Origin: a virus
Taxonomy: Duplodnaviria; Heunggongvirae; Uroviricota; Caudoviricetes
Length of the DNA: 19,033 bases
Strand: one strand, 5' to 3'
Virus record (IMG/VR): IMGVR_UViG_2681813004_000005
Span: 1-19,033 of that record
The notes beneath the pieces are model-generated. The model did not search any database and was not told the origin of the DNA. It saw only the letters and a list, made by a program, of their open reading frames with translations. Positions 1 to 14,825 of the stretch are shown here, in pieces. A program made the position numbers and the translations under genes. Position 1 is the stretch's first letter, and each line of letters opens with the position of its first letter.

Positions 1-30
1 TTATTTATTTTTTCAGGTTTTGTAAATTAT

Positions 31-60
31 TTGTTCGTGGTTGTTCCAGGTTGTTCGGTG
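31..60. repeat. Three tandem 10-bp units TTGTTCnnnn (ttgttcgtgg / ttgttccagg / ttgttcggtg); function unknown, possible regulator binding array upstream of the unit-1 capsid operon
   Basis: Read directly: TTGTTC at 31, 41 and 51, exact 10-bp phasing. Confidence 0.8.
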
Positions 61-73
61 ATTCTGGCTGATG

Positions 74-101
74 TTTACATACTGATTTTTATGTATATGT
101 T
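74..101 (+). promoter_or_regulatory. Putative sigma70-like promoter (TTTACA, 16-bp spacer, TATGTT) upstream of the unit-1 capsid gene
   Basis: TTTACA at 74-79 and TATGTT at 96-101 in an AT-rich stretch about 150 bp upstream of the capsid start. Hexamer match only. Confidence 0.25.
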
Positions 102-132
102 GGCGTGTGGCACTCAGACGTGAGCCGCCACA

Positions 133-182
133 ATGCCGCCTGACCCCCTGCGCGATGCCGGGTTGATCTGCGAGATGCCGGG
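133..182. repeat. Three copies of ATGCCG(C/G) at about 21-bp spacing (two copies extend to GATGCCGGG); function unknown
   Basis: Read directly: aATGCCGcc at 133, gATGCCGgg at 155 and 175. Confidence 0.7.
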
Positions 183-250
183 AGTGTCGGGCGGCGCTCC
201 CTCCGTGTTGGTTTCACGTCCTGAATCTTAACCAATACGAGAAAACCTTC

Positions 251-1396
251 ATGAAGAAATTAATCGAACTCCGCCAGCAAAAAACCGCCCTGAAAAACCA
301 GATGCGATCCCTGCTGGAAAAAGCCGACAGTGAAAACCGCAGCCTGAACGATGACGAAGGCAAACAGTTTGATGAACTGCGTGCAAAAGCCGATTCCCTC
401 GACACAGAAATCTCCCGTCTTGAAGCTGTTGCGGATGAAGAACGTAACCAGCCAGGTGTTTCCGTCGAAGAGAAAATCACCAAAGACGAACTACGCTCTT
501 ACATTCTGACCGGGGAAACCCGCAACCTGTCCGGCAGTGTCCCGGCTGATGGTGGTTATACGGTTATCCCGGAACTGAACAGAGAAGTTATGCGTCAGCT
601 TTCTGATGAATCGGTGATGCGTAAAATCTGTACTGTTAAAACCATTCACAGCAATGAATTTAAGCAACTGGTTTCTGCCGGGGGCGCGGTCGTTGAACAC
701 GGTGAAGAAGGTGCAGCACGTAACCAGACGGCAACACCAAAACTGAATGAAGTCAGTATCCGCCTGTATCCGATCTACGCTTACCCGAAAACCACTCAGG
801 AAATTATCGATTTTTCCGAAGTCGATATTATGGGCTGGTTATCTTCTGAAATTGGCGACACTTTCGTTGATACCGAAGAAACGGATCTGGTTTCCGGTGA
901 TGGCGAGAAAAAAGCTAAAGGTTTCCTGGCTTTTCCGCGCACTGCGGATAACGACAAAACCCGTCCTTTCGGTACGCTCCAGACGAAAAAAGTTACTGGC
1001 AGTCTCAGCGCCGACATGCTGATTGACCTGAAATTTACGCTGCGCAATAAGTACCGCAAAAAAGCTGTATGGGTGATGAACTCAAATACAGCCGCCTCCG
1101 CACAAAAACTGAAAAATGCCACTGGTGATTACATCTGGCGCGATCGTTTACAGGCTGGTGATCCTGATTCTCTGCTGGGGCTTCCGGTTGAATATCTGGA
1201 ATTTATGCCGGACGGTGTGATTGCAGTAGGTGACTTTAAGCGCGGTTATTTCATCGTTGACCATGAAACCGGTACGCGTACCCGTCCGGATTTCAGCGAA
1301 CCCGGATTCATTAACATCTATACCCAGAAATATCTGGGCGGTGGTGTGGTGGATTCGAACGCCATCAAGATTCTGGAAATTCAGGCTGGCAAGTAA
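251..1396 (+). CDS. Major capsid protein, HK97 fold, with N-terminal coiled-coil delta (scaffold) domain
   Basis: 381 aa ORF. N-terminal roughly 100 aa is charged and coiled-coil-like. C-terminal half aligns with the second capsid ORF at 10393-11598 (shared KGFLA, FKRGY.IVD, VDS.AIK.L motifs). Immediately followed by a terminator hairpin. Confidence 0.85.
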   Translation: MKKLIELRQQKTALKNQMRSLLEKADSENRSLNDDEGKQFDELRAKADSLDTEISRLEAVADEERNQPGVSVEEKITKDELRSYILTGETRNLSGSVPADGGYTVIPELNREVMRQLSDESVMRKICTVKTIHSNEFKQLVSAGGAVVEHGEEGAARNQTATPKLNEVSIRLYPIYAYPKTTQEIIDFSEVDIMGWLSSEIGDTFVDTEETDLVSGDGEKKAKGFLAFPRTADNDKTRPFGTLQTKKVTGSLSADMLIDLKFTLRNKYRKKAVWVMNSNTAASAQKLKNATGDYIWRDRLQAGDPDSLLGLPVEYLEFMPDGVIAVGDFKRGYFIVDHETGTRTRPDFSEPGFINIYTQKYLGGGVVDSNAIKILEIQAGK

Positions 1397-1401
1397 TGAG
1401 C

Positions 1402-1426
1402 AAAGGGGGCTTCGGCCTCCTTTTTC
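1402..1426 (+). terminator. Rho-independent terminator after the unit-1 capsid gene
   Basis: AAGGGGGC / TTCG tetraloop / GCCTCCTT stem (8 bp with one G-U pair) followed by TTTTT. Confidence 0.6.
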
Positions 1427-1445
1427 AGCTTTATGGAGTACACCG

Positions 1446-2006
1446 ATGAAAAATACCGATTTTGAAATCCGTACATCTGAACTGACCGCCAGCGATAAAA
1501 AACTGGTGGGTTATGCCGTTCGCTGGAACAGCCTTTCAGAAATTATCTGGGACGAATTCCGCGAACAGTTCACGCCGGGGGCTTTTGCTGACTATCTGGC
1601 GGCGGGTAATGATGTGCGCTGCCTGTATGAGCATGACTATACCCGACTGCTGGGGCGCACCAAATCCGGAACACTGGTACTGACTGAGGACAACACCGGG
1701 CTACGTTTTGAACTGACACCGCCTGATACCCAGCTTGGAAAAGATGTGCTTACGCTGGTGGAGCGTGGCGATATTACAGGAATGAGCTTTGGCTTTCGCG
1801 CATTATGCGAAGAATGGAATATCGCGCAAAAACCGTATCTGCGTACTGTTACCGCTGCAGAACTCAGGGAAATCACGATCACGTCGATGCCTGCTTATCC
1901 CGAATCTGGCGTGGAGATTGCCCACCGTTCGTTGTTTGCACAGCACCCTGAATTACGCCCGGCAGGAAATAATCGTCATCGCTGGGCTGAACTGGCGGGG
2001 TTGTGA
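1446..2006 (+). CDS. Prohead maturation protease, HK97 family
   Basis: First ATG of the 1230-2006 frame that has an RBS (GGAG about 10 nt upstream). Aligns with the protease ORF at 9728-10378. Position next to capsid and portal genes. Confidence 0.75.
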   Translation: MKNTDFEIRTSELTASDKKLVGYAVRWNSLSEIIWDEFREQFTPGAFADYLAAGNDVRCLYEHDYTRLLGRTKSGTLVLTEDNTGLRFELTPPDTQLGKDVLTLVERGDITGMSFGFRALCEEWNIAQKPYLRTVTAAELREITITSMPAYPESGVEIAHRSLFAQHPELRPAGNNRHRWAELAGL

Positions 2007-2007
2007 T

Positions 2008-3231
2008 ATGTGGTGGCCTTTTAGTCGTAAAAAAAGCGATCTGCGTAACCTGTCCATTGATGATTTTCTGGCGCTGTCCGGCGTACCGAATACCGGATCC
2101 GGAGAATATGTTTCTGCCGGGACGGCTGAATCATTGCCTGCTGTGATGAACGCGGTTTCTGTCATCGCTGAGGCGGTGGCCACGATGCCGTGTTATCTGT
2201 ATCTGGTACGTAATGACAAGGGCAGGGAGGCGCGGGAATGGCTGGACAGTCATCCGGTAGATATTCTGCTGAATGAGCAGCCTAATTCATGCCAGACACC
2301 TTACCAGTTTAAACGCACAATGATGCGTCACTGCCTGCTGAACGGTAACGCCTATGCGGTTATTGAGTGGGGGCAGGACGGGCAGCCAAAATCACTTCAT
2401 CCTTATGCGCCGGGGTGTGTTGTACCGGAACGCACAGGCGCACACAAATACCGATATACCATCACCGAACCCTATACAGGAACGGTGCGCACGTATTTAC
2501 AGGAAGAAGTTCTGCATCTCCGCTATGCCTCGGATGATGGCTTTCTGGGGCGTTCCCCCGTCACGATTTGCCGTGAGGCGCTGGGGCTTGGCCTTGCTCA
2601 ACAGCGTCACGGAGCCAGCATTATGAAAGATGGCATGATGGCGGCAGGGATTATCACGTCAGGCGAATGGCTGGACGGCGTGAAAGGTAAACAGGCATTA
2701 GACGCCCTGGAACGCTACAAGGGGGCGAAAAATGCCGGAAAAACGCCAATCCTTGAAGGGGGCATGGATTACAAGCAACTGGGGATGAGTAACCAGGATG
2801 CGGAATGGCTGGCCTCCCGTCGCTTCTCCATTGAAGACATCGCCCGGATGTTCAACGTGTCGCCTATTTTTCTGCAGGAATACAGCAACAGCACCTACAG
2901 CAATTTCAGTGAGGCAAGCCGCGCGTTTCTGACCATGACAATGCGTCCTTGGTTGGCGAACTTCGAACAGCAAATCAAGGCCGCTTTGCTGGTGGCTTCT
3001 CCCGTGCCTGGAACCCGTTATCTGGTTGAGTTTGATTCAGCCGATTTATTACGCGCCACCCCTACCGAACGTTACGCCACGTATGAGAAAGGGATTAAGA
3101 ACGGGATCATCAATCCGAACGAAGCCCGTGAGCGTGAGGGAATGCCGCCGCGTGAAGGTGGTGACGAGTTCAGCCAGGCATGGAAGCAGGAAGTGACAAT
3201 CAGCAAGAACAGTAAGGGCGGTGACGAATGA
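2008..3231 (+). CDS. Portal protein, HK97 family
   Basis: ATG at 2008, 2 nt after the protease stop. The track ORF from 1789 is an upstream artefact in the same frame. N-terminus MWWPFSRKKSD parallels MFFSGLFQRKSD of the second portal; shared C-terminal motifs (SIEDIARMFNV vs QLEEICRLFRV; NPNEAREREGMPPREGGDEF vs SPNDCRDLEDMNPRPGGDVY). Confidence 0.85.
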   Translation: MWWPFSRKKSDLRNLSIDDFLALSGVPNTGSGEYVSAGTAESLPAVMNAVSVIAEAVATMPCYLYLVRNDKGREAREWLDSHPVDILLNEQPNSCQTPYQFKRTMMRHCLLNGNAYAVIEWGQDGQPKSLHPYAPGCVVPERTGAHKYRYTITEPYTGTVRTYLQEEVLHLRYASDDGFLGRSPVTICREALGLGLAQQRHGASIMKDGMMAAGIITSGEWLDGVKGKQALDALERYKGAKNAGKTPILEGGMDYKQLGMSNQDAEWLASRRFSIEDIARMFNVSPIFLQEYSNSTYSNFSEASRAFLTMTMRPWLANFEQQIKAALLVASPVPGTRYLVEFDSADLLRATPTERYATYEKGIKNGIINPNEAREREGMPPREGGDEFSQAWKQEVTISKNSKGGDE

Positions 3232-3566
3232 TAGCCGGAAAGATGCGGGACCGGGTGACGATTATGACATTTACCACACAGCGCCTGCCGTCAGGTGCGA
3301 TCCAGCAGATATGGACGGAAGGGGAAACCCTCTGGGCAGAGGTCAAGGGGATCAGCGGACGGGAATTACTGACCGCAGGCGCAGAAACCGCACCTGCAAC
3401 GATTCGGGTATGGGTTCGCTATCGTGGCGACATATCCGCCGCCAGTCGCCTGAAAGTGCTTACCGGCGCTTTTGCCGGGAGCACGCTTAATATCATCGGG
3501 ATCCCCTTACCTGATGCGAAAAGAACCCGGCTGGAAATTCTGGCAAAGGTGGGTACAGAAAAATGA
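3228..3566 (+). CDS. Head-tail adaptor / head closure protein
   Basis: 112 aa. ATG overlaps the portal stop (ATGA). About 66 of 112 residues identical in an ungapped hand alignment to the ORF at 12163-12501, including the block WAEVKGISGRE and LKVLTGAF. Confidence 0.8.
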   Translation: MIAGKMRDRVTIMTFTTQRLPSGAIQQIWTEGETLWAEVKGISGRELLTAGAETAPATIRVWVRYRGDISAASRLKVLTGAFAGSTLNIIGIPLPDAKRTRLEILAKVGTEK

Positions 3567-3859
3567 CAGCAGAAAAAATAACCCTGGAAGAGGCCAAACT
3601 TCACTGCCGCATAGATGGTAACACAGAAGACACACTGATTCAGGCATACATAAGCGCGGCGCTGGAGGTATGCCAGAAGCATATTGGCAGGCGTTTTGAT
3701 GACGGCCTGGAATTTACCCCTGCAATAAAAATTGGTTGCCTGATGTACATCTCGCAACTGTACGAGTACCGGACAACGCTTGGCGATACCGATACAAAAG
3801 AAATTCCCCTGACGATTTCTGCGCTCTGGTCGGTTTATCGTGATGTGGGGGTGTACTGA
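3563..3859 (+). CDS. Head-tail connector, gp6-like
   Basis: 98 aa. ATGA overlap with the upstream gene. N-terminal TLEEAKLHCRID matches TLEELRVQCRID of the ORF at 11849-12154; weaker similarity further on. Confidence 0.7.
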   Translation: MTAEKITLEEAKLHCRIDGNTEDTLIQAYISAALEVCQKHIGRRFDDGLEFTPAIKIGCLMYISQLYEYRTTLGDTDTKEIPLTISALWSVYRDVGVY

Positions 3860-4299
3860 TGCCGTGGCAACCATTAAGGCGATGCACTGAGCCGGGCTGT
3901 AATAAGCGCGTGAAGTCCGGCAAGTGTGAAGAGCACAGGCGGGCTGCATGGCGTGCAGAGGATGCCAGACGGGGACACCGCCGCGCGCGCGGGTATTCCC
4001 GACAGTGGGACAAATACCGCGCCCTGTACCTGAGCAAAAACCCGTTATGCGTGCGTTGTCTGGCTAAGGGGATTTATACGCCAGCTCTTGTGGTGGATCA
4101 CATCATTCCCATCAATGGCGGCGGTGATGTTCTCTTCTGGCCTGAGTGGAACCACCAGGCATTGTGCCAGACGTGCCACAACCGTAAGACGACACGGGAA
4201 GACCCAGCCACGAAAGCGAACCGTAAGGCGGGTATGTATCGCGAGCAGGAAGAACGGGCGGCACACCGTAACGACTGGATGTATGGCGATGATGACTGA
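3859..4299 (+). CDS. HNH endonuclease, phage packaging-associated (HK97 gp74-like)
   Basis: 146 aa with Cys-rich N-terminus and HNH motif (DHIIP ... N ... CHNRKT). Sits immediately upstream of terS, as in HK97-type cos phages. Start overlaps the previous stop (TGATG). Confidence 0.8.
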   Translation: MPWQPLRRCTEPGCNKRVKSGKCEEHRRAAWRAEDARRGHRRARGYSRQWDKYRALYLSKNPLCVRCLAKGIYTPALVVDHIIPINGGGDVLFWPEWNHQALCQTCHNRKTTREDPATKANRKAGMYREQEERAAHRNDWMYGDDD

Positions 4300-4468
4300 A
4301 CAGGAGCAAAACAGGCTGATACGTGGACTGATAAGGCAGCGTGACTTATGGAAGACACAGGAGACAGGGCACAAAGCCAACAGGACAGGGCGCACAGAAC
4401 GCACCACAGCGAAGCGATTAACCGACCGTGACCGCGAGGTCATGGAATGTTTTCGCAATCGCTGGTGA
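4283..4468 (+). CDS. Hypothetical small Arg-rich protein (about 60 aa)
   Basis: 3' portion of the 4088-4468 frame beginning at ATG 4283 (or 4289/4292), overlapping the HNH stop. No recognisable motif. The 5' part of that frame overlaps HNH and is discounted. Confidence 0.3.
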   Translation: MAMMTEQEQNRLIRGLIRQRDLWKTQETGHKANRTGRTERTTAKRLTDRDREVMECFRNRW

Positions 4469-4587
4469 GGCCGTCAGAGGGGGTGGGGGAGGTTTTCAGG
4501 ACAAAACCGTCCCTGCCGGACACCGACCGCCTCCTCAAATTTTTGTGCACGGAAATTTTTTTGAAAATAATTGGGCGAAAAAAGAAC

Positions 4588-4944
4588 ATGGCAAGACCAC
4601 CAAAAGCCCCCGCTTACCTGGATGAAATCGCGGTCAGGCAGTGGAAGGAAAAATCGCGCCAGCTTTCCGGGCGGGAAGACCTTACCCCCGCCGACTGGAG
4701 CAATCTGGAGCTGTATTGCGTTAACTACTCCATATACCGCAAAGCCGTCGAAGACCTTGCCACGCGCGGGTTCAGCATTGTTAACAGTCAGGGCAGCGAG
4801 AGCAGAAACCCCGCCCTGAGCGCAAAGGCTGACGCTGAAAGAATAATGATCAAAATGGCTTCTTTGCTGGGTTTTGACCCGGTAAGCCGCCGCAGAAATC
4901 CACCGGAAACAGAGGAAGAGGACGAGCTTGACCGCCTGGCATGA
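4588..4944 (+). CDS. terS: Terminase small subunit, P27 family
   Basis: Internal ATG at 4588 gives N-terminus MARPPKAPAYLDE, typical of P27-family TerS. Sits between HNH and terL. The track ORF from 4447 is an upstream extension. Confidence 0.75.
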   Translation: MARPPKAPAYLDEIAVRQWKEKSRQLSGREDLTPADWSNLELYCVNYSIYRKAVEDLATRGFSIVNSQGSESRNPALSAKADAERIMIKMASLLGFDPVSRRRNPPETEEEDELDRLA

Positions 4945-6607
4945 GTACGCAGAAGGCGTAAAAAACGGCAAAATTACGGCCTGTAAACGACTGAAACAGG
5001 CCGTTAAACGGTATTTTTCTGACCTTGAAAACCCCCTTTACACGTTCGATCCGGAGGTCGTGGAGCGGTTTATTGCCTTTTCCAGGGTGTGTCCGCACGT
5101 AAAAGGCGCAATGCGCGGTAGCCCCATTGAGCTGGAGCCGTGGCAGCAGTTCGCCTTTGCGTGCATCCTGGGCTTTAAGGTTAAGGCCACCGGACGGCGC
5201 AAATACACCAGCGCATTCATTGAAGTGCCGCGAAAAAATGCCAAATCCACGGTCGCCGCTATCCTGGCTAACTGGTTTCTGGTTATGGAAAACGGGCAGC
5301 AGGATATTTACACCGCCGCCGTGAGTCGTGATCAGGCGCGGATCGTGTTTGATGATGCGCGTCAGATGTGCCTTTTATCCCGACCGTTACGAAAGCGGGT
5401 AAATATTCAGGCACACAAGGTGATACACCCGAAAACCAACAGCCTGTTAAAGCCACTGGCAGCAAAAGCGGCAACCATTGAGGGGACAAACCCGAGTCTT
5501 GCCATTGTGGATGAATATCACCTGCACCCAGACAACGGGGTTTATTCCGCGCTTGAACTGGGAATGGGGGCGCGTCCGGAGGGGTTATTATTTGCCATCA
5601 CCACATCGGGGAGCAACGTTGTTTCAGCCTGTAAACAACACTACGACTATTGCTGCCAGATACTGGATGGTGAAGAGGTGAACGAATCCATGTTCGTGCT
5701 GATTTACGAGCTGGATGATGAAAGCGAGGTTGACGATCCGGCGATGTGGATAAAGGCGAATCCAAATATCGATGTTTCCGTCGATCGTGAAAAACTGGCC
5801 TCAACCATCCAGAAAGCGCGGGGTATTCCGTCGCAGTGGGTGGAGATGATGACAAAGCGCTTTAATATCTGGTGTCAGGGGGCTACGCCGTGGATGGGTA
5901 ACGGTGCATGGGCTGAGTGTGCCGGAACGTTCGCGGAGGCGGATTTATACGGGCAGGAGTGCTACGCGGGGCTGGACTTATCATCAACCAGCGATATTTT
6001 TTCAACAAATGATATTTCAAGCGTGTGTTATGCCTTTCCGGTTGGTAAAACCATCATGCTGGTTTCCCGTCATTATCTGCCGGAGCAGCAGCTACAGAAT
6101 CCCGCCAATAAAAACCGCGCCATCTATCGCCAGTGGGCAAAATCGGGCTGGATACGCACAACGCCAGGCGACTGTATTGATTACGACCGTATCAGGGATG
6201 ACATCATGAAGGACGCGGAAAATTTTAATATCCGGCTGGTGGGCTTCGATACATGGAACGCCACGCACCTGATGACGCAGCTACAGGGCGCAGGATTTGA
6301 GGTGGAGCCGTTCCCGCAAACATACCTTCGTTTCAGTCCGGCGGCGAAATCGTTCGAAGTTTTTGTTAACCGGAAGGTGATTGTGCATCGTGGCGATCCG
6401 GTGCTGGCCTGGTCAATGAGTAATGTTGTGATGCAGAGTGACGCGAACGCCAATATCAAGCCGAACAAGAAAAAATCATCCAACAAGATAGACCCGAGCG
6501 TTGCGGCTCTGATGGCGTTTGGCACATTCCAGGCAGAGCATGAGGAATTTGCATTTGATATGAGCGACAGCCACAAAGAGCGACTTGCGGCGTTTGATGG
6601 GGTATGA
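4928..6607 (+). CDS. terL: Terminase large subunit (ATPase plus nuclease)
   Basis: 559 aa. The only in-frame start after the upstream stop is TTG at 4928, with a GAGGAAGAGG purine tract before it; overlaps the terS end. C-terminal half aligns with the terL remnant at 7572-8315. Confidence 0.85.
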   Translation: MTAWHEYAEGVKNGKITACKRLKQAVKRYFSDLENPLYTFDPEVVERFIAFSRVCPHVKGAMRGSPIELEPWQQFAFACILGFKVKATGRRKYTSAFIEVPRKNAKSTVAAILANWFLVMENGQQDIYTAAVSRDQARIVFDDARQMCLLSRPLRKRVNIQAHKVIHPKTNSLLKPLAAKAATIEGTNPSLAIVDEYHLHPDNGVYSALELGMGARPEGLLFAITTSGSNVVSACKQHYDYCCQILDGEEVNESMFVLIYELDDESEVDDPAMWIKANPNIDVSVDREKLASTIQKARGIPSQWVEMMTKRFNIWCQGATPWMGNGAWAECAGTFAEADLYGQECYAGLDLSSTSDIFSTNDISSVCYAFPVGKTIMLVSRHYLPEQQLQNPANKNRAIYRQWAKSGWIRTTPGDCIDYDRIRDDIMKDAENFNIRLVGFDTWNATHLMTQLQGAGFEVEPFPQTYLRFSPAAKSFEVFVNRKVIVHRGDPVLAWSMSNVVMQSDANANIKPNKKKSSNKIDPSVAALMAFGTFQAEHEEFAFDMSDSHKERLAAFDGV

Positions 6608-6888
6608 CGAGAATGAGCGAAACCGAACTACTAAAAATAATCCGCCGCGTTACCGGAATCAGCCAGGAAGCAGGCAAACAGGAGGCCACGCAGCCGGACA
6701 GCGTGATAGCCGAAAATTACGCGCGTGTGGTGGCTGAGGTGATGCGCCGTGACGGTATCGAGCTTAACGGCGTGGATATACGCACCAGAGTTCTGGAGTT
6801 GTTGTCATATCGTCGCCGCGTGGAGATGTACCAGGAGAAAGAAAAAATTACTTACCACTGGAAGAAGCCGGAGCGGTTACGACGTTAA
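6604..6888 (+). CDS. Hypothetical protein (94 aa), last gene of unit 1
   Basis: ATGA overlap with the terL stop suggests translational coupling. No motif recognised. Confidence 0.45.
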   Translation: MTRMSETELLKIIRRVTGISQEAGKQEATQPDSVIAENYARVVAEVMRRDGIELNGVDIRTRVLELLSYRRRVEMYQEKEKITYHWKKPERLRR

Positions 6889-6890
6889 CT

Positions 6891-6940
6891 TGTGGTGACA
6901 TACCGTGACGGAGAGTGACAACCAGTGACACACAGTGACA
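6891..6940. repeat. Five GTGAC(A/G) hexamers at exact 10-bp phasing; candidate protein-binding array (integrase arm-type, terminase or regulator sites)
   Basis: Read directly: GTGACA 6895, GTGACG 6905, GTGACA 6915, 6925, 6935, each preceded by a variable 4-mer. Starts 3 nt after the stop of the 6604-6888 ORF. Confidence 0.85.
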
Positions 6941-7001
6941 AAAAGACGGTATTTAAATAGAGTGGGTGTTTAATACCCCCCGTTTTTTTTCGTGTGGTGC
7001 A

Positions 7002-7016
7002 TGGTCAAAATGACCA
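7002..7016. promoter_or_regulatory. Perfect palindrome TGGTCA-AAA-TGACCA, operator-like
   Basis: Read directly; 6-bp arms, 3-bp spacer, preceded by a T8 run at 6983-6990. Confidence 0.5.
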
Positions 7017-7142: not shown

Positions 7143-7193
7143 GCGGGTTATTTTGGGGGTATTTGCGGGTTATTTTGAATGTCTCGCGGGTTA
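7143..7193. repeat. Three direct copies of GCGGGTTA at 21-22 bp spacing
   Basis: Copies at 7143, 7165, 7186; the first two sit in a longer unit TTTGCGGGTTATTTT. Confidence 0.85.
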
Positions 7194-7270
7194 CGCTTTG
7201 GCTAATATTCAAACGCATCATTTTTTAACGCATTGATATTAAAGAATAAAAAATACTTAGCAAGCGAAGA

Positions 7271-7295
7271 TAACCCGCTAACCCGCATAACCCGC
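7271..7295. repeat. Three tandem copies of TAACCCGC (reverse complement of GCGGGTTA) at 8-9 bp spacing
   Basis: Copies at 7271, 7279, 7288. With the 7143-7193 array they form an inverted pair around an AT-rich core of about 75 bp (7194-7270). Confidence 0.85.
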
Positions 7296-7571
7296 ACTGT
7301 TTTGTATATATATACGAAAAATTGCATTCAGGGGGGTGATCGAAATTTCTACTGCCTCTTATCTCTTTGAGTGCTCACCTCGTCAGATTGTTACACACAA
7401 GAAATAAAAAATGCTTCGCGATGGTAGGTCGAATCACTGTATCAAAAAACGGTGTGTATCAGCATTAAAACAATACAGATACGTGTATTGCGCTGTGTAT
7501 TGCTTGATGATTTATAAAGACTGTTTTTTCATGTTAAACGATTGATATACAGGTGATTTTAAAAAACTTGA

Positions 7572-8315
7572 AATATTCTTACCAAACACATGAATGTGTG
7601 GGTCACTGCCGAGTCTGCCTGGATGGACATGATTAAGTGGGAGAAATGCGAATACATTGCCCCACGACATGAGCTGAAAACGTATCCCATGTGGGTCGGC
7701 GTTGACCTTGCTCATAAGATTGATATCTGTGCGGCGGCAAAACTCTGGCGAACGGATAACGGGCATGTTCATGCCGATTTTAAATTCTGGCTCCCGGAAG
7801 GACGGCTGGAACGATGCTCGCGGCAGCAGGCAGAACTTTACCGGAAGTGGGCGGAGATGGATAAGCTGATTCTGACGGATGGTGATGTTATCGATCATGC
7901 TCAGATAAAAAGTGACTTACTGGAATGGATTGGTGGTGAAAACCTCAGGGAACTGGGATTTGACCCGTGGAGCGCGATGCAGTTCAGCCTGGCACTGGCT
8001 GAAGAAGGGATACCGCTGGTGGAGGTTCCGCAGACGGTTCGCAATCTGTCAGAGGCCATGAAGGAAACGGAATCACTGGTCTATGCCGGACGTTTCCATC
8101 ACAGCAATCATCCGGTCATGAACTGGATGATGTCTAACGTTACGGTAAAACCGGACAAAAACGACAATATCTTCCCGAATAAATCCACGCCGGAAGCCAA
8201 AATCGACGGCCCTGTTGCGATGTTTACAGCGATGAGCCGGATGCTGGTCAATGGTGGTGAACCGGAGCCGGATCTGTCTGAACATCTGGTCAGCGTGGGC
8301 ATCCGCTCGCTTTAA
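7572..8315 (+). pseudogene. terL: 5'-truncated terminase large subunit (C-terminal nuclease-domain remnant only)
   Basis: Frame is open only from 7572 (TGA at 7569-7571). The 241 aa from ATG 7590 align with the C-terminal part of the unit-1 TerL (LYRKWAEMDKLILTDGDVIDH vs IYRQWAKSGWIRTTPGDCIDY; HPVMNWMMSNV vs DPVLAWSMSNV). ATPase domain and upstream terS are absent; AT-rich non-coding DNA lies upstream. Confidence 0.8.
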
Positions 8316-8326
8316 CCGAGGTCATT

Positions 8327-8509
8327 ATGTTTCTGATAATTCTCGCGCCACTGGTGGGCGTGCTGGGTGCGCTTTTGCTGGCGTATGGTGCCTGGCTGAT
8401 TTATCCCCCGGCGGGTTTTGTTGTTGCCGGGGTGCTGTGCCTGTTCTGGTCGTGGCTGGTGGCGCGATATCTCGACCGTACACAGCCGTCTGTCGGCGGA
8501 GGTAAATAG
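8327..8509 (+). CDS. Small hydrophobic protein, two predicted transmembrane helices
   Basis: 60 aa, GAGG RBS 6 nt upstream; two hydrophobic segments ([23 protein letters not shown] and [16 protein letters not shown]). Confidence 0.5.
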
Positions 8510-9750
8510 TGTTCTTTTCGGGATTATTTCAACGAAAAAGTGACGCGCCGGTGACCACGCCAGCAGAGCTGGCGGATGCCATCGGGTTGTCTTACGACAC
8601 CTATACCGGAAAGCAGATCAGCAGTCAGCGAGCCATGCGACTGACGGCGGTTTTTTCCTGCGTCAGAGTGCTGGCAGAGTCGGTCGGGATGTTGCCCTGC
8701 AATCTGTATCACCTGAACGGCAGCCTGAAACAGAGGGCCACCGGCGAACGTCTGCATAAGCTGATCTCCACGCATCCCAATGGCTATATGACGCCGCAGG
8801 AGTTCTGGGAGCTGGTGGTCACCTGTCTGTGCCTGAAGGGAAACTTTTACGCCTACAAAGTGAAAGCATTTGGCGAAGTGGCTGAACTGCTGCCCGTCGA
8901 TCCCGGTTGTGTGGTACCGAAGCTTAACAGTCGCTGGGAGCCGGTCTATCAGGTCACATTCCCGGACGGTTCCACGGATGTACTGAGCCAGGAAGATATC
9001 TGGCATGTGCGCACGCTGACGCTGGACGGTCTGGTGGGACTGAATCCCGTCGCCTATGCCCGCGAGGCAATATCGCTGGCAGCAGCGACCGAAGAGCACG
9101 GGGCCAGACTGTTCAGCAATGGTGCGGTGACGTCCGGTGTGTTGCGTACAGAACAGACGCTGTCGGATCAGGCTTATGAGCGCCTGAAGAAAGATTTTGA
9201 GGAGCGTCACACCGGGCTTGGCAATGCTCACCGCCCGATGATCCTTGAGATGGGGCTGGACTGGAAGTCGATGGCGCTGAACGCTGAGGACAGCCAGTTC
9301 CTGGAAACCCGCAAGTTTCAGCTTGAAGAAATCTGTCGTCTGTTCCGGGTGCCGTTGCACATGGTGCAGAACACCGATCGCGCCACCTTCAACAATATCG
9401 AAGAGCTGGGGCTGGGATTTATCAACTATTCACTGGTGCCGTATCTGACCCGCATCGAACAGCGGATCAACACCGGACTGGTACGAAAAAGTAAGCAGGG
9501 CGTTTATTACGCCAAATTTAACGCCGGGGCGTTACTGCGCGGGGATATGAAGTCCCGTTTTGAAGCCTACGCCACCGGGATCAACTGGGGAATTTACTCT
9601 CCCAATGACTGCCGCGACCTGGAAGATATGAATCCGCGTCCCGGTGGGGATGTCTATCTCACACCGATGAACATGACCACGAAACCCTCCGATGGCAGTA
9701 AAGCCGGTAAGCAGAAGGATAACGCCAATGCAGACGAAACAACGTCTTGA
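8509..9750 (+). CDS. Portal protein, HK97 family (prophage)
   Basis: 413 aa. GTG start at 8509 overlapping the upstream stop, GGAGG RBS. Homologous to the unit-1 portal. Confidence 0.85.
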   Translation: MFFSGLFQRKSDAPVTTPAELADAIGLSYDTYTGKQISSQRAMRLTAVFSCVRVLAESVGMLPCNLYHLNGSLKQRATGERLHKLISTHPNGYMTPQEFWELVVTCLCLKGNFYAYKVKAFGEVAELLPVDPGCVVPKLNSRWEPVYQVTFPDGSTDVLSQEDIWHVRTLTLDGLVGLNPVAYAREAISLAAATEEHGARLFSNGAVTSGVLRTEQTLSDQAYERLKKDFEERHTGLGNAHRPMILEMGLDWKSMALNAEDSQFLETRKFQLEEICRLFRVPLHMVQNTDRATFNNIEELGLGFINYSLVPYLTRIEQRINTGLVRKSKQGVYYAKFNAGALLRGDMKSRFEAYATGINWGIYSPNDCRDLEDMNPRPGGDVYLTPMNMTTKPSDGSKAGKQKDNANADETTS

Positions 9751-10378
9751 TGTACCGCTGAGTCTGAAATCTGTCAGTGACTCAGGTGAGTTTGAAGGGT
9801 ATGGCTCCGTCTTTGGTGTAAAGGACAGTCACGATGATGTGGTGATGTCCGGGGCATTTGCTGCTTCCCTGCGGGCGTGGAGTGACAGAAAAGCGTTACC
9901 TGCGCTGCTCTGGCAGCACCGCATGGATGAACCCATCGGTGTTTACACCGAAATGAAGGAAGACGATGTCGGGCTTTACGTCAGGGGACGGTTGCTTATT
10001 GATGATGATCCCCTCGCAAAACGCGCACATGCACACATGAAGGCCGGTTCGTTAACCGGCCTTTCTATTGGGTACGTCCTGAAAGACTGGGAATACGACC
10101 GGAGCAAAGAAGCCTTTCTGCTGAAAGAAATCGACCTCTGGGAAGTCAGCCTGGTGACGTTCCCGTCTAACGACGAGGCGCGGATCAGCGACGTCAAGAA
10201 CGCACTGGCCCGCGGGGAAATCCCCGAACAGAAAAAAATTGAAAGAGTCCTGCGTGATGTCGGACTCTCCCGTACCCAGGCCAAAGCATTCATGGCCGGG
10301 GGCTATGGCGCACTGTCCCTGCGCGACGCTGAGGATGTGGGCTCTGCACTGAATGCACTGAAAAATCTGAACTTCTAA
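9728..10378 (+). CDS. Prohead maturation protease, HK97 family (prophage)
   Basis: ATG at 9728 with AAGGA RBS; overlaps the portal 3' end. The track ORF from 9692 is an upstream extension. Position between portal and capsid. Confidence 0.75.
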   Translation: MQTKQRLDVPLSLKSVSDSGEFEGYGSVFGVKDSHDDVVMSGAFAASLRAWSDRKALPALLWQHRMDEPIGVYTEMKEDDVGLYVRGRLLIDDDPLAKRAHAHMKAGSLTGLSIGYVLKDWEYDRSKEAFLLKEIDLWEVSLVTFPSNDEARISDVKNALARGEIPEQKKIERVLRDVGLSRTQAKAFMAGGYGALSLRDAEDVGSALNALKNLNF

Positions 10379-10392
10379 TCAGGAGAAATACG

Positions 10393-11598
10393 ATGGCGGT
10401 TGATATTAAAGATGTCGAACAGGTCGCGCAGGAGCTGCAGCAGAAGTTTGACGACTTCAAAGCAAAGAACGACAAGCGCGTGGATGCGATTGAGCAGGAA
10501 AAAGGCAAACTTGCCGGGCAGGTGGAAACCCTGAACGGGAAACTCAGCGAGCTGGAAAACCTCAAAAGCGATCTTGAAAAAGAGCTGCTTGAGCTGAAAC
10601 GTCCGGCAGGTGGTGCGCAGAATAAACTGGCCACCGAGCATAAAGAAGCGTTTGTGGGCTTCCTGCGTAAAGGCCGTGAAGATGGTCTGCGCGATCTGGA
10701 GCGTAAGGCATTACAGGTGGGCACCGATGAAGACGGTGGCTATGCCGTGCCGGAAGCGCTGGATCGCAACATTCTTAACCTGCTGAAAGATGAAGTGGTG
10801 ATGCGCCAGGAAGCCACGGTGATCACCGTTGGCGGTTCCGACTACAAAAAACTGGTGAATCTGGGCGGTACGGCTTCCGGATGGGTTGGCGAGACTGACG
10901 CGCGCTCCCAGACTGCCACTTCCAGACTGGGGCTGATTGAACCTTTCATGGGGGAAATCTACGGTAACCCGCAGGCCACCCAGAAAATGCTGGATGATGC
11001 CTTTTTCAACGTGGAGGCCTGGATCAACAGCGAGCTGGCAACCGAATTTGCCGAACAGGAAGAAATTGCCTTTACCACCGGCGATGGTACCAAGAAGCCG
11101 AAAGGGTTCCTGGCGTATGAATCCACTGATGAAACCGACAAGGTCCGGGCGTTCGGCAAACTTCAGCATATTGTATCCGGCGAAGCGACGACGGTGACTG
11201 CAGATGCTATTATCAAACTGATTTACACGCTGCGTAAGGCACACCGCACCGGCGCGAAGTTCATGATGAACAACAACAGCCTGTTTGCCATTCGTCTGCT
11301 GAAAGACACCGAGGGTAACTATCTGTGGCGTCCGGGGCTGGAGCTGGGGCAGCCGTCCTCTCTGGCGGGTTACGGTATCGCTGAAAACGAACAGATGCCG
11401 GATATTGCCGCTGATGCGAAAGCCATTGCATTTGGTAACTTCAAACGGGGTTACACCATCGTTGACCGTATCGGTACCCGCATTCTGCGTGACCCGTACA
11501 CCAATAAACCGTTTGTCGGTTTTTATACCACCAAGCGCACCGGCGGCATGCTGGTCGATTCGCAGGCCATCAAACTGCTGAAGATTGCAGCGGCGTAA
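10393..11598 (+). CDS. Major capsid protein, HK97 fold with delta domain (prophage)
   Basis: 401 aa. AGGAG RBS. Coiled-coil N-terminus, C-terminal motifs shared with the unit-1 capsid protein. Followed by a hairpin. Confidence 0.9.
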   Translation: MAVDIKDVEQVAQELQQKFDDFKAKNDKRVDAIEQEKGKLAGQVETLNGKLSELENLKSDLEKELLELKRPAGGAQNKLATEHKEAFVGFLRKGREDGLRDLERKALQVGTDEDGGYAVPEALDRNILNLLKDEVVMRQEATVITVGGSDYKKLVNLGGTASGWVGETDARSQTATSRLGLIEPFMGEIYGNPQATQKMLDDAFFNVEAWINSELATEFAEQEEIAFTTGDGTKKPKGFLAYESTDETDKVRAFGKLQHIVSGEATTVTADAIIKLIYTLRKAHRTGAKFMMNNNSLFAIRLLKDTEGNYLWRPGLELGQPSSLAGYGIAENEQMPDIAADAKAIAFGNFKRGYTIVDRIGTRILRDPYTNKPFVGFYTTKRTGGMLVDSQAIKLLKIAAA

Positions 11599-11603
11599 TC
11601 ATT

Positions 11604-11632: not shown

Positions 11633-11648
11633 GACAGGTGAAAGAATC

Positions 11649-11848: not shown

Positions 11849-12154
11849 ATGATGCCCACTCTGGAAGAGCTTCGTGTTCAGTGCCGGATTGATGATGACA
11901 ATGAACAGGAGAATTCTCTTCTTATGATGTATCTGGCTGCTGCCAGGGAAGAGGCTGAAAAGTTTTTAAACCGGACGCTTTACGATGAAACTGTTTCTGA
12001 GCAGGATACGACCGGGCTTGTAATAACACCTCTGATAAAGCTGCGTCTTATGCAACTGGTTGGCTACTGGTACGAGAACAGGGAAATGCAGGATGCAGTG
12101 CCTGATTTTTTCTATACCGGACTGCGGATGTATCGGTTTCATCCCGGAACATAG
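11849..12154 (+). CDS. Head-tail connector, gp6-like (prophage)
   Basis: AGAGG RBS 8 nt upstream. N-terminal TLEELRVQCRID motif shared with the unit-1 connector. Confidence 0.7.
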   Translation: MMPTLEELRVQCRIDDDNEQENSLLMMYLAAAREEAEKFLNRTLYDETVSEQDTTGLVITPLIKLRLMQLVGYWYENREMQDAVPDFFYTGLRMYRFHPGT

Positions 12155-12162
12155 GAGGATTC

Positions 12163-12501
12163 ATGCAGGCAGGAAGATTACGTGATCGTGTGGTTATTCT
12201 GAATGCCACCACCGTTCGGTCTCCATCAGGGCACCCTGTGGAAACAATGACGGAGGGGGCAACCATATGGGCAGAAGTTAAGGGGATCAGTGGCAGGGAG
12301 AGAATATCCGGAGGCGCAGAAACTGCTCAGGCTACAGTGAGGGTCTGGATGAGATTCCGGCGAGATGTGACAGCAACTTCATGTCTGAAAGTGCTGACTG
12401 GTGCATTCAAAGGCGCGATTCTGAGTATAGACGGTCCGCCGATACCGGATGCCCGTGCCACCCGGCTTGAGATACTCTGTTCTCAGAAGGGGAATGTGTG
12501 A
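12163..12501 (+). CDS. Head-tail adaptor / head closure protein (prophage)
   Basis: 112 aa, strong RBS (AGGAGG). About 59% identical by hand count to the unit-1 adaptor at 3228-3566. Confidence 0.8.
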   Translation: MQAGRLRDRVVILNATTVRSPSGHPVETMTEGATIWAEVKGISGRERISGGAETAQATVRVWMRFRRDVTATSCLKVLTGAFKGAILSIDGPPIPDARATRLEILCSQKGNV

Positions 12502-12947
12502 TGGATTTCAGTCTTGATTTTTCAGGTCTGGCGGATATTGCACGGGATCTGGAGACGCTCAGCAGGGCAGAAAATAATAAGGTACTGCGCGATGCCACCC
12601 GTGCCGGTGCTGAAGTTATGCGGGATGCTGTTGTTGAACGTGCGCCGGAGCGAACCGGAAAACTGAAAAAAAATGTGGTTGTTCTCACTCAGCGTTCAAA
12701 GCGTCGGGGGGAAATTATCTCGGGTGTCCACATTCGCGGACGGAACCTGCGAACCGGAAACAGTGATAACAGCATGAAAGCCAGTGATCCCCGAAATGCG
12801 TTTTACTGGCGCTTTGTGGAGCTGGGAACGATAAACATGCCCGCGCATCCGTTCATTCGCCCGGCTTTCGATACGACAGAGGAACTGGCAGCACAGATTG
12901 CCATACAGCGAATGAATCAGGCTATTGATGAGGTCTTAAGTAAATGA
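12498..12947 (+). CDS. HK97 gp10-family neck / tail-attachment protein
   Basis: Conserved HPFIRPA motif typical of the gp10 family. GTG at 12498 or ATG at 12501, overlapping the upstream stop. Confidence 0.65.
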   Translation: MMDFSLDFSGLADIARDLETLSRAENNKVLRDATRAGAEVMRDAVVERAPERTGKLKKNVVVLTQRSKRRGEIISGVHIRGRNLRTGNSDNSMKASDPRNAFYWRFVELGTINMPAHPFIRPAFDTTEELAAQIAIQRMNQAIDEVLSK

Positions 12948-13288
12948 GAGAGGCCACACTGTATTCCCTGCTGTCTCAACTGGCCGGAGGACAGGTTTAT
13001 CCTTATGTGGTCCTGCTGACGGAGGGAAAGCCTGCGGTATCTCCGCCGTGGCTGGTGTTTTCTGTGGTGTCTGACACGGCATCTGATGTGCTTGATGGTC
13101 AGGCTGAATCCAGAATTACCGTGCAGATCGATGTCTGGGCGACAGTACCTGATGACGCAGATGATATCCGTGAGCAGGCGCTTGATGCGGTAAGGCAACT
13201 GGCACCCTCCGTTATTTCTAAAACGCAGGGTTATGATCCTGATTCCCGTCTGAGCAGAGCCACGCTTGAATTTCAGGTAATAGCCTGA
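12944..13288 (+). CDS. Tail completion / tail-terminator-like protein (DUF3168-like)
   Basis: 114 aa. ATGA overlap with the upstream gene. Call rests mainly on position between the neck and major tail genes. Confidence 0.5.
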   Translation: MREATLYSLLSQLAGGQVYPYVVLLTEGKPAVSPPWLVFSVVSDTASDVLDGQAESRITVQIDVWATVPDDADDIREQALDAVRQLAPSVISKTQGYDPDSRLSRATLEFQVIA

Positions 13289-14098: not shown

Positions 14099-14112
14099 TG
14101 AGGATAGATGTG

Positions 14113-14786: not shown

Positions 14787-14794
14787 GTCAACAT

Positions 14795-14816
14795 AACCGC
14801 TTCGGCGGTTTTTTTC
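14795..14816 (+). terminator. Short hairpin plus T tract between the GT chaperone and tape measure genes (possible attenuator)
   Basis: AACCGC / TTCG tetraloop / GCGGTT followed by TTTTT. Confidence 0.4.
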
Positions 14817-14825
14817 GTCCGGAGA

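What the first reader, a model, noticed from the sequence alone, without database searches (positions are those of the whole stretch)
251..6888. Complete capsid and packaging module with no tail genes: candidate capsid-forming, tail-stealing satellite
Positions 251-6888 encode everything needed to build and fill a head (capsid with scaffold domain, protease, portal, adaptor, connector, HNH, TerS, TerL). Nothing tail-like follows before a non-coding junction and a separate prophage head-tail module. A lambdoid prophage would carry tail genes directly downstream of its head genes, so this is either a satellite that makes its own capsids and borrows helper tails (as described for capsid-forming PICIs) or an unusual prophage remnant. 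Integrase, regulation and replication genes would lie upstream of position 1 and cannot be seen.
Basis: partly seen in the sequence, partly recalled or inferred. Interest (0 to 1): 0.85.

Follow-up and report, generated by a model that had tools for sequence, protein, structure and literature searches.

The report
Capsid-making satellite embedded in helper terminase gene
The window holds the right half of a phage satellite that builds and fills its own small heads but has no tail genes, and it sits inside the large-terminase gene of a resident prophage; both the satellite type and this insertion site are already published, so it is a clear example rather than a discovery.

Summary
Positions 251-6888 encode capsid, protease, portal, head-closure, adaptor, HNH, TerS and TerL, plus a conserved 94-aa ORF, with no tail or lysis gene. 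The element does not end at 6888. It runs to an attR core, TTACCAA, at 7579-7585. The "separate prophage" downstream is the 3' part (codons 344-585) of a prophage terL that the element interrupts. About 900 complete E. coli genomes carry that terL intact and 34 carry the occupied junction. Complete relatives are about 15.4 kb and start with integrase, two AlpA genes, Bro-N, primase and SSB. The module is collinear with the characterised cf-PICI EcCIEDL933 (54-92% aa identity). The helper part is 98% identical to the isolated phage phi467. The insertion site, core and doubled TGTATTGC arm motif match the published helper-embedded PICI group A_Terminase_1_246 (Tommasini et al. 2023). So this is a cf-PICI that is also helper-embedded: a new member of known kinds. 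Neither paper states the overlap of the two categories. Function (excision restoring terL, small capsids, theft of this helper's tails) is inferred, not shown. Interest is modest.

The parts
1..250 (+). Intergenic leader upstream of the capsid gene, collinear with complete satellites
   Evidence: Window 8-3189 aligns at 99% to L003 9758-12939, which lies downstream of the satellite's replication and accessory genes.
251..1396 (+). Satellite major capsid protein (HK97 fold family, about 100-aa N-terminal extension)
   Evidence: Pfam Phage_capsid 6e-60 on residues 101-376. 75% aa identity to the EcCIEDL933 capsid and 36% to the helper capsid.
1446..2006 (+). Satellite prohead serine protease
   Evidence: Peptidase_S78 3e-45. 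63% aa identity to EcCIEDL933.
2008..3231 (+). Satellite portal protein
   Evidence: Phage_portal 5e-92. 81% to EcCIEDL933 and 32% to the helper portal.
3228..3566 (+). Satellite head-closure protein (Hc1; 'head-tail adaptor/connector' of the cf-PICI papers)
   Evidence: Phage_HCP 1e-18 and phrog_25. 62% aa identity to the helper's Hc1 but only 54% to the EcCIEDL933 ortholog. Lies in the variant segment 3190-3655, which is absent from L003-type relatives.
3563..3859 (+). Satellite gp6-like head-tail adaptor (Ad1)
   Evidence: Phage_connect_1 8e-12 and phrog_40. 68% to EcCIEDL933 and 35% to the helper Ad1.
3859..4299 (+). Satellite HNH endonuclease (packaging cofactor)
   Evidence: Pfam HNH 9e-10 and phrog_144 4e-45. 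84% to EcCIEDL933.
4283..4468 (+). Conserved 61-aa ORF between HNH and TerS. The satellite's cos site may lie in this HNH-terS interval (inferred).
   Evidence: 82% aa identity to the EcCIEDL933 ORF at the same place. DNA of 4251-4600 is 86% identical to EcCIEDL933 and shows no similarity to the helper's HNH-terS gap.
4447..4944 (+). Satellite small terminase (P27 family). The true start may be internal, near 4588.
   Evidence: Terminase_4 4e-23. 88% to EcCIEDL933 TerS and 27% to the helper TerS.
4928..6607 (+). Satellite large terminase (ATPase plus nuclease domains)
   Evidence: TerL_ATPase and TerL_nuclease. 92% to EcCIEDL933 TerL and 32% to the helper TerL. At the position homologous to attB it reads ATGACAAAG, not TTTACCAAA.
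6604..6888 (+). Conserved 94-aa ORF of unknown function, last gene of the module
   Evidence: phrog_1561 1e-45. 74% to the ORF after terL in EcCIEDL933. No defence-system match.
6895..6944 (+). Five GTGAC repeats phased at 10 bp, followed by a terminator-like hairpin at 6964-6993
   Evidence: The segment 6894-7120 is absent from L003, L008 and EcCIEDL933 but 100% identical in a yifB-integrated cf-PICI of strain 700481.
7143..7295 (.). GCGGGTTA x3 (direct, 21-22 bp apart) facing TAACCCGC x3. Conserved right-end non-coding region of unknown role.
   Evidence: The region up to about 7350 is shared with cf-PICIs that use other attachment sites (matches ending at 7346/7352).
7482..7504 (+). Doubled arm-type motif tgTGTATTGCgctgTGTATTGCt of the HE-PICI attP
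   Evidence: It matches the published motif tgTGTATTGCantgTGTATTGCa, placed at a fixed distance upstream of the crossover (PMC10111431). Spacing to the core is the same as in L008.
7579..7585 (+). attR crossover core TTACCAA, the right end of the satellite
   Evidence: Empty-site versus occupied-site alignment. Identical to the 'Att Identity ttaccaa' of group A_Terminase_1_246.
7586..8315 (+). 3' part (codons 344-585) of the interrupted helper terL (nuclease domain)
   Evidence: TerL_nuclease only. The 7590-8315 translation is 100% aa identical to residues 345-585 of phage phi467 TerL. The intact 585-aa gene occurs in about 900 E. coli genomes.
8509..11598 (+). Helper prophage portal (8509-9750), prohead protease (9728-10378) and major capsid (10393-11598)
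   Evidence: PHROGs. 98% nt identity to phage phi467 over 7586-19033.
11849..13288 (+). Helper Ad1 adaptor, Hc1 head closure, neck/tail-completion protein and tail terminator
   Evidence: PHROGs phrog_40, phrog_25, phrog_5 and phrog_347.
13394..19033 (+). Helper tail genes: major tail protein, chaperones, tape measure (14826-18071) and minor tail proteins (cut at the contig end). These are the presumed source of stolen tails.
   Evidence: PHROGs. Annotation of the collinear region in strain 181.1 and in phi467.

Best explanation
The window is the right 7.6 kb of a capsid-forming phage-inducible chromosomal island (cf-PICI) of about 15.4 kb. The island is integrated, co-oriented, inside the large-terminase gene (codons 341-343, F-T-K) of a phi467-like HK97-type temperate prophage. 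It is a helper-embedded PICI of the published site group A:Terminase_1:246.

Proposed mechanism:
1. In the lysogen the satellite splits the helper terL. The helper can make proheads and tails but cannot package DNA.
2. On induction the composite excises and replicates. Helper late transcription reads from the 5' terL fragment into the satellite's int and alpA genes.
3. The arm-binding tyrosine integrase recombines at TTACCAA. This releases the satellite circle and restores terL exactly.
4. The satellite replicates with its own primase. It builds small HK97-like capsids from its own capsid, protease and portal, and packages its genome with its own HNH/TerS/TerL at its own cos.
5. Its Ad1 and Hc1 proteins dock helper-made tails.
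6. In a new cell the integrase targets the same terL motif of a resident prophage.

Shown here: gene content, exact insertion point, att core and arm motif, existence of the empty site, orthology to EcCIEDL933, and identity of the helper type. Inferred: every dynamic step (excision timing, capsid size, tail source).
For: Gene content:
- The eight head and packaging genes have strong family matches, and no tail or lysis gene is present.

Insertion site:
- The intact terL reads ...AATTTTTTTACCAA|ACACATGAAT.... Occupied sites read ...TTTACCAA|GAAAGTAAC (attL, in relatives) and ...ATTCTTACCAA|ACACATGAAT (attR, window 7579-7585).
- About 900 of 5426 complete E. coli genomes have the intact terL, and 34 have the window-type attR junction.
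- The window's terL fragment is 100% aa identical to residues 345-585 of phi467 TerL.

Relatives:
- L001, L002, L003, L008 and L130 carry int (Arm-DNA-bind_3 plus Phage_integrase), two AlpA genes, Bro-N, a D5_N/DUF927 primase and SSB upstream of the same module, all co-oriented with the helper late genes. The L008 copy is 15,450 bp.

Comparison with the prototype and the helper:
- The module is collinear with EcCIEDL933 at 54-92% aa identity.
- It is only 27-41% identical to the helper's counterparts, except Hc1 at 62%.
- The HNH-terS interval is unrelated to the helper's.
- The helper half is 98% identical to the isolated 38.6-kb phage phi467.
- The satellite half has no close phage relative.

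Published matches:
- Group A_Terminase_1_246 has att identity 'ttaccaa', the doubled TGTATTGC motif, E. coli 042 as a listed member, and composite excision followed by satellite excision shown for a sister HE-PICI (PMC10111431).
- cf-PICI proteins make small capsids and need only helper tails (10.1101/2022.09.08.507074).
- Adaptor and connector proteins set tail compatibility (10.1101/2025.02.11.637232).
Against: - The window's own left half (int, alpA, primase, attL) is not on the contig, so completeness of this particular copy is unproven.
- No experiment exists for a terL-embedded cf-PICI. The published induction data are for a capsid-gene-embedded PICI of a different type, and virions could not be recovered even there.
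- The surrounding prophage has not been shown to induce the satellite or to supply compatible tails. In strain EDL933 none of the 17 resident prophages helps EcCIEDL933.
- Many HE-PICI helpers look truncated, according to the authors.
- L003-type relatives lack Hc1, so the Hc1-helper match is not a general property of the group.
Confidence: 0.85

Rival explanations
1. It is a rearranged or duplicated prophage head region. Two HK97-type head modules lie in tandem through recombination or decay, and there is no satellite.
For: Two sets of capsid, protease, portal, Ad1, Hc1 and TerL genes lie within 12 kb on one strand, and one terL copy is truncated.
Against: - The two sets share only 27-41% aa identity (Hc1 62%) and have opposite gene order.
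- The boundary is a precise 7-bp core with an arm-type motif.
- The empty site exists in about 900 genomes.
- Relatives carry int/alpA/primase and total about 15.4 kb.
- The same module occurs at chromosomal sites such as yifB and roxA-phoQ with other integrases.
Confidence: 0.03
2. It is a genuine cf-PICI, but a stranded or inactive copy. Either the satellite or the surrounding prophage is defective, so the arrangement is a fossil that no longer excises or transfers.
For: The HE-PICI authors note that many helpers appear truncated and that they could not recover virions. The window shows only part of each element. The M217 empty-site prophage has a frameshifted protease.
Against: - All nine satellite ORFs in the window are full length compared with EcCIEDL933.
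- The helper late region is 98% identical to an isolated phage over 11.4 kb, with intact ORFs.
- The junction is conserved in 34 complete genomes and in two helper lineages.
Confidence: 0.1
3. It is a cf-PICI that uses the prophage only as a landing pad, and its real helper is a different phage. Insertion in terL would then serve to disable a competitor or resident prophage rather than to exploit it in cis.
For: cf-PICIs can take tails from non-inducing phages and even from other species. EcCIEDL933 is not helped by any resident prophage. Off-target chromosomal insertions by this integrase group exist.
Against: - Co-orientation with the late operon is seen in every example examined.
- Hc1 is closer to this helper's Hc1 (62%) than to its own ortholog in EcCIEDL933 (54%).
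- The helper is an HNH/P27-TerS HK97-type siphophage, the kind of phage cf-PICIs are reported to exploit.
Confidence: 0.12

Closest known systems
EcCIEDL933, the prototype capsid-forming PICI (Alqurainy et al. 2023; bioRxiv 10.1101/2022.09.08.507074)
   Same: - Identical gene order: capsid, protease, portal, Hc1, Ad1, HNH, small ORF, TerS, TerL, then a 93/94-aa ORF.
- aa identity of 75, 63, 81, 54, 68, 84, 82, 88, 92 and 74% respectively.
- About 15.4 kb, with an int/alpA/DUF927-primase/SSB/PerC left half (seen in the window's complete relatives).
- No tail or lysis genes.
   Different: - EcCIEDL933 sits in the chromosome between roxA and phoQ.
- Its integrase is only 42% identical to the terL-targeting integrase of the window's relatives.
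- The cf-PICI preprint read here (10.1101/2022.09.08.507074) lists only chromosomal attB sites.
- The Hc1/Ad1 pair is the most diverged part.
- The right-end non-coding region is unrelated.
Helper-embedded PICIs, site group A:Terminase_1:246, e.g. Eco33.15.A_Terminase_1_246 of E. coli 042 (Tommasini, Mageeney and Williams 2023, PMC10111431)
   Same: - Same target gene and codon position.
- Same att identity 'ttaccaa'.
- Same doubled TGTATTGC arm motif, same co-orientation and same size of about 15 kb.
- Same species.
- The E. coli 042 member has the same gene content, and its module is 95.6% identical over the 80% of the window's module that aligns.
   Different: - This contig is probably not in their catalogue. 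It was not found in the stored part of the table, and it lacks the integrase their search started from.
- The window's copy carries an Hc1 gene and a GTGAC-repeat segment that the E. coli 042/L003 type lacks.
- Its helper is of the phi467 lineage.
- That paper does not describe these elements as capsid-forming.
Classical Gram-negative PICIs (EcCICFT073 type)
   Same: Same int/alpA/primase left half and the same general satellite logic.
   Different: Classical PICIs lack portal, connectors and TerL, and they package into helper-made capsids. This element encodes all of these itself.
Escherichia phage phi467 (LN997803.1), an HK97-type HNH/P27-TerS siphophage
   Same: The helper half of the window (7586-19033) is 98% identical to it. 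The TerL C-terminal 241 residues are identical.
   Different: phi467 has an uninterrupted terL. Its core reads TTC ACA AAA, which is two synonymous differences from TTT ACC AAA.

Membership tests
cf-PICI (capsid-forming PICI) | [quoted passage not shown] | tested here: met
   All eight are found with Pfam/PHROG E-values from 1e-10 to 1e-178. They are collinear with and orthologous to EcCIEDL933.
cf-PICI (capsid-forming PICI) | Absence of lytic genes and of a tail module within the element | tested here: met
   None lies in window 1-7585. None occurs in the full-length relatives L003, L008, L130 and L132.
cf-PICI (capsid-forming PICI) | Integrase plus AlpA regulator plus primase/replication module to the left of the packaging module | tested here: inconclusive
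   This part is not on the contig, because the window is the whole contig. It is present in every relative that extends upstream (L001, L002, L003, L008, L130), which align to the window's module at about 92-99%.
cf-PICI (capsid-forming PICI) | Size of about 10-18 kb | tested here: inconclusive
   The window copy is truncated. The complete copy in strain 181.1 is 15,450 bp from att to att. EcCIEDL933 is 15.4 kb.
cf-PICI (capsid-forming PICI) | Makes its own small capsids, packages only itself, and needs only helper tails | not testable with these tools
   This is an experimental property. It is shown for EcCIEDL933 with helper HK106.
HE-PICI, site group A:Terminase_1:246 | Inserted inside a prophage late gene (terL) and co-oriented with it | tested here: met
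   terL codons 344-585 resume immediately after the core at 7586, on the same strand as all satellite genes. The 5' terL part lies upstream of int in relatives.
HE-PICI, site group A:Terminase_1:246 | att identity block 'ttaccaa' | tested here: met
   TTACCAA lies at 7579-7585. It occurs only once on the + strand of the window. The published value is given.
HE-PICI, site group A:Terminase_1:246 | Doubled motif tgTGTATTGCantgTGTATTGCa at fixed distances either side of the attP centre | tested here: met
   The upstream copy is at 7482-7504, ending 78 nt before the core centre (published value 81 +/- 2; the measuring convention is unknown). The downstream copy is seen in relatives about 134 nt after the core (L003 1535-1557, L008 4935-4957).
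HE-PICI, site group A:Terminase_1:246 | Integrase belongs to the HE-PICI integrase clade | not tested
   The integrase is not in the window. Relatives encode a 407-aa Arm-DNA-bind_3 plus Phage_integrase protein. No phylogeny was run.
HE-PICI, site group A:Terminase_1:246 | No replacement sequence in attP, so the target gene is truly disrupted until excision | tested here: met
   Satellite DNA upstream of the core (7300-7578) is AT-rich non-coding sequence with no terL similarity. In relatives the 5' terL ORF runs 55 unrelated codons into the satellite and then stops.
HE-PICI, site group A:Terminase_1:246 | Precise excision that restores the late gene after composite induction | not testable with these tools
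   Shown by qPCR and deep sequencing only for the capsid-gene HE-PICI 11capE.

The most novel reading that the evidence does not exclude
Embedding in terL may be a strategy specific to capsid-forming satellites.
- They bring their own terminase, so splitting the helper's terL blocks only the helper's DNA packaging and leaves tail (and prohead) synthesis untouched. The helper becomes a tail factory until the satellite excises.
- In relatives the truncated terL ORF ends 5 nt before the int start codon. Helper late translation could therefore directly trigger satellite excision.

If true, these cf-PICIs would be cis-acting parasites of their helper. That differs from the 'commensal' behaviour reported for EcCIEDL933.
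Probability: 0.3. Interest if true: 0.55.

Novelty: new member of a known kind. Interest (0 to 1): 0.3.

Why it matters
The window is a clean natural example in which two recently described ideas coincide: satellites that build their own heads and steal only tails, and satellites that live inside a late gene of their helper prophage. The papers read here that define the two categories do not connect them. Recognising that the terL-embedded group is capsid-forming gives a testable prediction: helper packaging is switched off in cis while tail production continues.

It also matters for annotation. Such composites look like one prophage with duplicated head genes and a 'pseudogenised' terminase. 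Prophage and satellite finders can therefore mis-call them.

Tried and rejected
- Extending the window upstream in its own assembly. This is impossible, because the window is the whole 19,033-bp contig.
- Treating the 21-bp repeat GTGTATTGCrCTGTGTATTGC as the att core. Rejected: alignment to an intact terL puts the crossover at TTACCAA, about 95 bp away (attR side). The repeat is the published arm-type motif.
- Reaching EcCIEDL933 through 'phage' fragments deposited with host ATCC 43895. This was a dead end, because the fragment's best matches are unrelated strains. EDL933 was found through a spread listing instead.
- Rfam scan of the window. No family reached its threshold.
- PADLOC scan of the small ORFs. 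Nothing found.
- Testing for 'escape' at attB. The synonymous core variants (26 of 120 viral contigs) are no more polymorphic than many neighbouring third-codon positions, so there is no support for selection. The lineage-association part of that script was mis-registered and is disregarded.
- Shared cos between satellite and helper. No similarity was found in the HNH-terS intervals.
- The tandem-duplication or prophage-remnant reading. Rejected for the reasons given under rival explanations.

Full report
**1. What is in the window**

The + strand of 251-6888 carries nine tightly packed ORFs. Pfam and PHROGs identify eight of them without ambiguity:
- HK97-type major capsid protein, 251-1396. 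The Phage_capsid match covers residues 101-376, leaving an N-terminal extension of about 100 aa.
- S78 prohead protease, 1446-2006.
- Portal, 2008-3231.
- Head-closure protein Hc1, 3228-3566.
- gp6-like adaptor Ad1, 3563-3859.
- HNH endonuclease, 3859-4299.
- P27-family small terminase, 4447-4944.
- Large terminase with ATPase and nuclease domains, 4928-6607.

The ninth ORF (6604-6888, phrog_1561) has no known function. No tail or lysis gene is present.

**2.

Downstream, 7590-8315 encodes only the nuclease part of a TerL. It is followed by a full HK97-type head, neck and tail series: portal, protease, capsid, Ad1, Hc1, neck protein, tail terminator, major tail protein, chaperones and a 1081-aa tape measure.

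In E. coli KFu019 the homologous satellite-like region lies between two annotated terL pseudogenes, one 'missing C-terminus' and one 'missing N-terminus'. It begins with a tyrosine integrase, two HTH/AlpA genes, Bro-N, a DUF927 primase and SSB.

A look-up of the window's capsid protein showed that the window is the entire contig AOTC01000215.1, so it cannot be extended. The same look-up returned further loci with an identical capsid protein and the same architecture.

**3. Exact insertion site**

I built an empty-site query from the two terL parts. About 900 of 5426 complete E. coli genomes carry this terL uninterrupted (1758 bp, 585 aa).

Alignment of an intact copy (strain M217) with the occupied locus gives:
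- intact: ...GTG AAT TTT TTT ACC AA|A CAC ATG AAT...
- attL: ...TTTTTTTACCAA|GAAAGTAAC...
- attR: ...GAAATATTCTTACCAA|ACACATGAAT...

The crossover core is therefore TTACCAA, within codons F341-T342-K343, between the ATPase and nuclease domains. In the window it lies at 7579-7585. The element's true right end is 7585, not 6888.

A doubled motif, tgTGTATTGCgctgTGTATTGCt, sits at 7482-7504, and a second copy lies about 134 nt inside attL in relatives.

The window-type attR junction occurs in 34 complete E. coli genomes. The complete element in strain 181.1 measures 15,450 bp.

**4. Identity of the two partners**

The helper half (7586-19033) is 98% identical over its full length to the isolated 38.6-kb phage phi467. 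phi467 has an intact terL, and the window's terL fragment is 100% identical in protein to phi467 TerL residues 345-585.

The satellite half has no close relative among 50,697 phage records. The best hit is 76% identity to a 16.5-kb record that is probably itself a satellite.

Identity between satellite and helper proteins is low: capsid 36%, portal 32%, TerL 32%, TerS 27%, HNH 41% and Ad1 35%. Hc1 is the exception at 62%. The gene order of the two modules is reversed. This excludes a duplication.

The satellite's own terL reads ATGACAAAG where the helper has TTTACCAAA, so it is not a target for its own integrase.

**5. Relation to the characterised prototype**

EcCIEDL933 was located in strain EDL933 between roxA and phoQ. 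It has the same gene order, including the small ORF between HNH and TerS and the 93-aa ORF after TerL.

Protein identities to the window are: capsid 75%, protease 63%, portal 81%, Hc1 54%, Ad1 68%, HNH 84%, TerS 88% and TerL 92%.

For EcCIEDL933 it has been shown experimentally that these genes make satellite-sized capsids and package only the island, and that only the helper's tail genes are needed. The size of 15.4 kb and the int/alpA/rep left half also match.

The integrase differs: the terL-targeting type is 42% identical to the EDL933 integrase. Another cf-PICI with yet another integrase sits in chromosomal yifB in strain 700481. It shares the window's right-end segment at 100%. So packaging modules and integration modules are exchanged among these elements.

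**6. Already published**

[quoted passage not shown] Their group A_Terminase_1_246 matches the window on every feature I could test:
- E. coli elements of about 15 kb.
- 'Att Identity ttaccaa'.
- The doubled motif tgTGTATTGCantgTGTATTGCa on both sides of the attP centre.

Their attL and attR alignments, including an off-target member, carry the same flanking satellite sequences as the window and its relatives.

E. coli 042 is a listed member. Its element has the same gene content as the window's relatives.

That paper does not use the term capsid-forming. The cf-PICI preprint read here speaks of six chromosomal attB sites. The SatelliteFinder paper mentions satellites inside prophages only as a caveat. 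So the overlap of the two categories is implicit in the data but not stated in what I could read.

**7. Mechanism**

Shown by sequence:
- terL is truly disrupted, with no replacement sequence in attP.
- All satellite genes point the same way as the helper late operon.
- The integrase of relatives has an arm-binding domain, and matching arm-type sites flank the core.
- The satellite's HNH-terS interval is 86% identical to EcCIEDL933's and unrelated to the helper's, which fits separate packaging specificity.
- In relatives the 5' terL ORF runs 55 codons into the satellite and stops 5 nt before the int ATG. The published catalogue flags such loci as 'term_int fusion'.

Inferred from the sister systems:
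- The composite excises and replicates, then the satellite excises late and restores terL (shown for 11capE).
- The satellite then makes small capsids, packages itself and takes helper tails.
- The 15.4 : 38.6 kb genome ratio (0.40) would fit a T=4 versus T=7 capsid. This is geometric reasoning only, not tested.

The variant segment 3190-3655 (Hc1 plus the 5' end of Ad1) is the one place where the window departs from otherwise 95-99% identical relatives. The adaptor/connector genes are the region reported to be the divergent hotspot that sets tail compatibility. The window's Hc1 is closer to the helper's Hc1 (62%) than to its EcCIEDL933 ortholog (54%). This is suggestive, but it rests on a single comparison.

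**8. Limits**

- The left half of this particular copy is unseen.
- No experiment exists for a terL-embedded cf-PICI.
- It has not been shown that the embedding prophage is the inducer or the tail donor.

**9. Verdict**

The element also turns out to be helper-embedded, at a catalogued site. It is a new member of known kinds, and interest is modest (0.3).

The most novel reading still open is that terL embedding is a cis-acting way for a terminase-bearing satellite to shut off helper packaging while keeping tail supply. I put its probability at about 0.3.

Noticed in passing
window 6895-6944 (with terminator-like hairpin at 6964-6993): Five GTGAC repeats lie exactly 10 bp apart, directly after the stop codon of the 94-aa ORF. 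The surrounding segment 6894-7120 is missing from L003, L008 and EcCIEDL933. It is 100% identical in a cf-PICI integrated in chromosomal yifB of strain 700481. The full segment occurs in 20 complete E. coli genomes and parts of it in about 270. It looks like a phased protein-binding array of unknown role.
   Followed up: partly
window 7143-7295: Three direct GCGGGTTA repeats (21-22 bp apart) face three TAACCCGC repeats (8-9 bp apart). This region, up to about 7350, is shared with cf-PICIs that use other attachment sites, so it travels with the packaging end and not with the integrase. It could be an origin, a regulator-binding site or a packaging site. No Rfam match.
   Followed up: partly
L009 (phage phi467 LN997803.1) terL, locus about 3490-3510; IMG/VR loci L010-L129: phi467 has the identical TerL protein around the site, but its attB core reads TTC ACA AAA instead of TTT ACC AAA. 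That is two synonymous changes inside the 7-bp crossover, which should hinder integration. In a row-capped sample of 120 viral contigs, 90 had the canonical core and 26 had TTC-AC(G/A/C) variants. The core's third-position polymorphism (0.34-0.36) is no higher than at many neighbouring sites, so there is no evidence of selected escape.
   Followed up: partly
window 3190-3655 versus L003 12940-13060: The closest relatives (L002, L003, L004, E. coli 042, KFu019) lack the Hc1 head-closure gene entirely and have only one 99-aa connector. The window, strain 181.1 and EcCIEDL933 have both Hc1 and Ad1. The window-type Hc1/Ad1 segment occurs at 97% identity or more in about two dozen complete E. coli genomes. 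Elements without Hc1 may have to borrow the helper's Hc1.
   Followed up: partly
L003 1398-1580 and L008 4797-4980 (attL side, outside the window): After the crossover, the truncated helper terL ORF continues for 55 codons into the satellite. The added tail is hydrophobic and phenylalanine-rich. The ORF ends with TAA 5 nt before the integrase ATG. This suggests translational coupling of int to helper late expression. RefSeq variously annotates a longer integrase here.
   Followed up: partly
window 8260-12150 versus L001/L003: The same satellite insertion site occurs in two helper lineages. The window and strain 181.1 have phi467-type portal, protease and capsid genes (97-98% identity). KFu019, 042 and L003 have a different head-gene set that does not align by blastn, although the terL and the tail regions are shared at 91-96%.
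   Followed up: partly
LR881103.1 'Escherichia phage vB_KppS-Ant' (hit H131): This 16.5-kb record, deposited as an induced prophage, matches the satellite's capsid-to-HNH region at 76% identity. From its size it is probably a cf-PICI deposited as a phage.
   Followed up: no
window 6970-7221 (- strand): An 83-aa ORF on the opposite strand overlaps the right-end non-coding region. It has no Pfam, PHROG or PADLOC match and no similarity to the 82-aa minus-strand ORF at the same place in EcCIEDL933. The collinear ORF of the same length in strain 700481 is annotated in RefSeq as a hypothetical protein. It may not be a real gene.
   Followed up: partly
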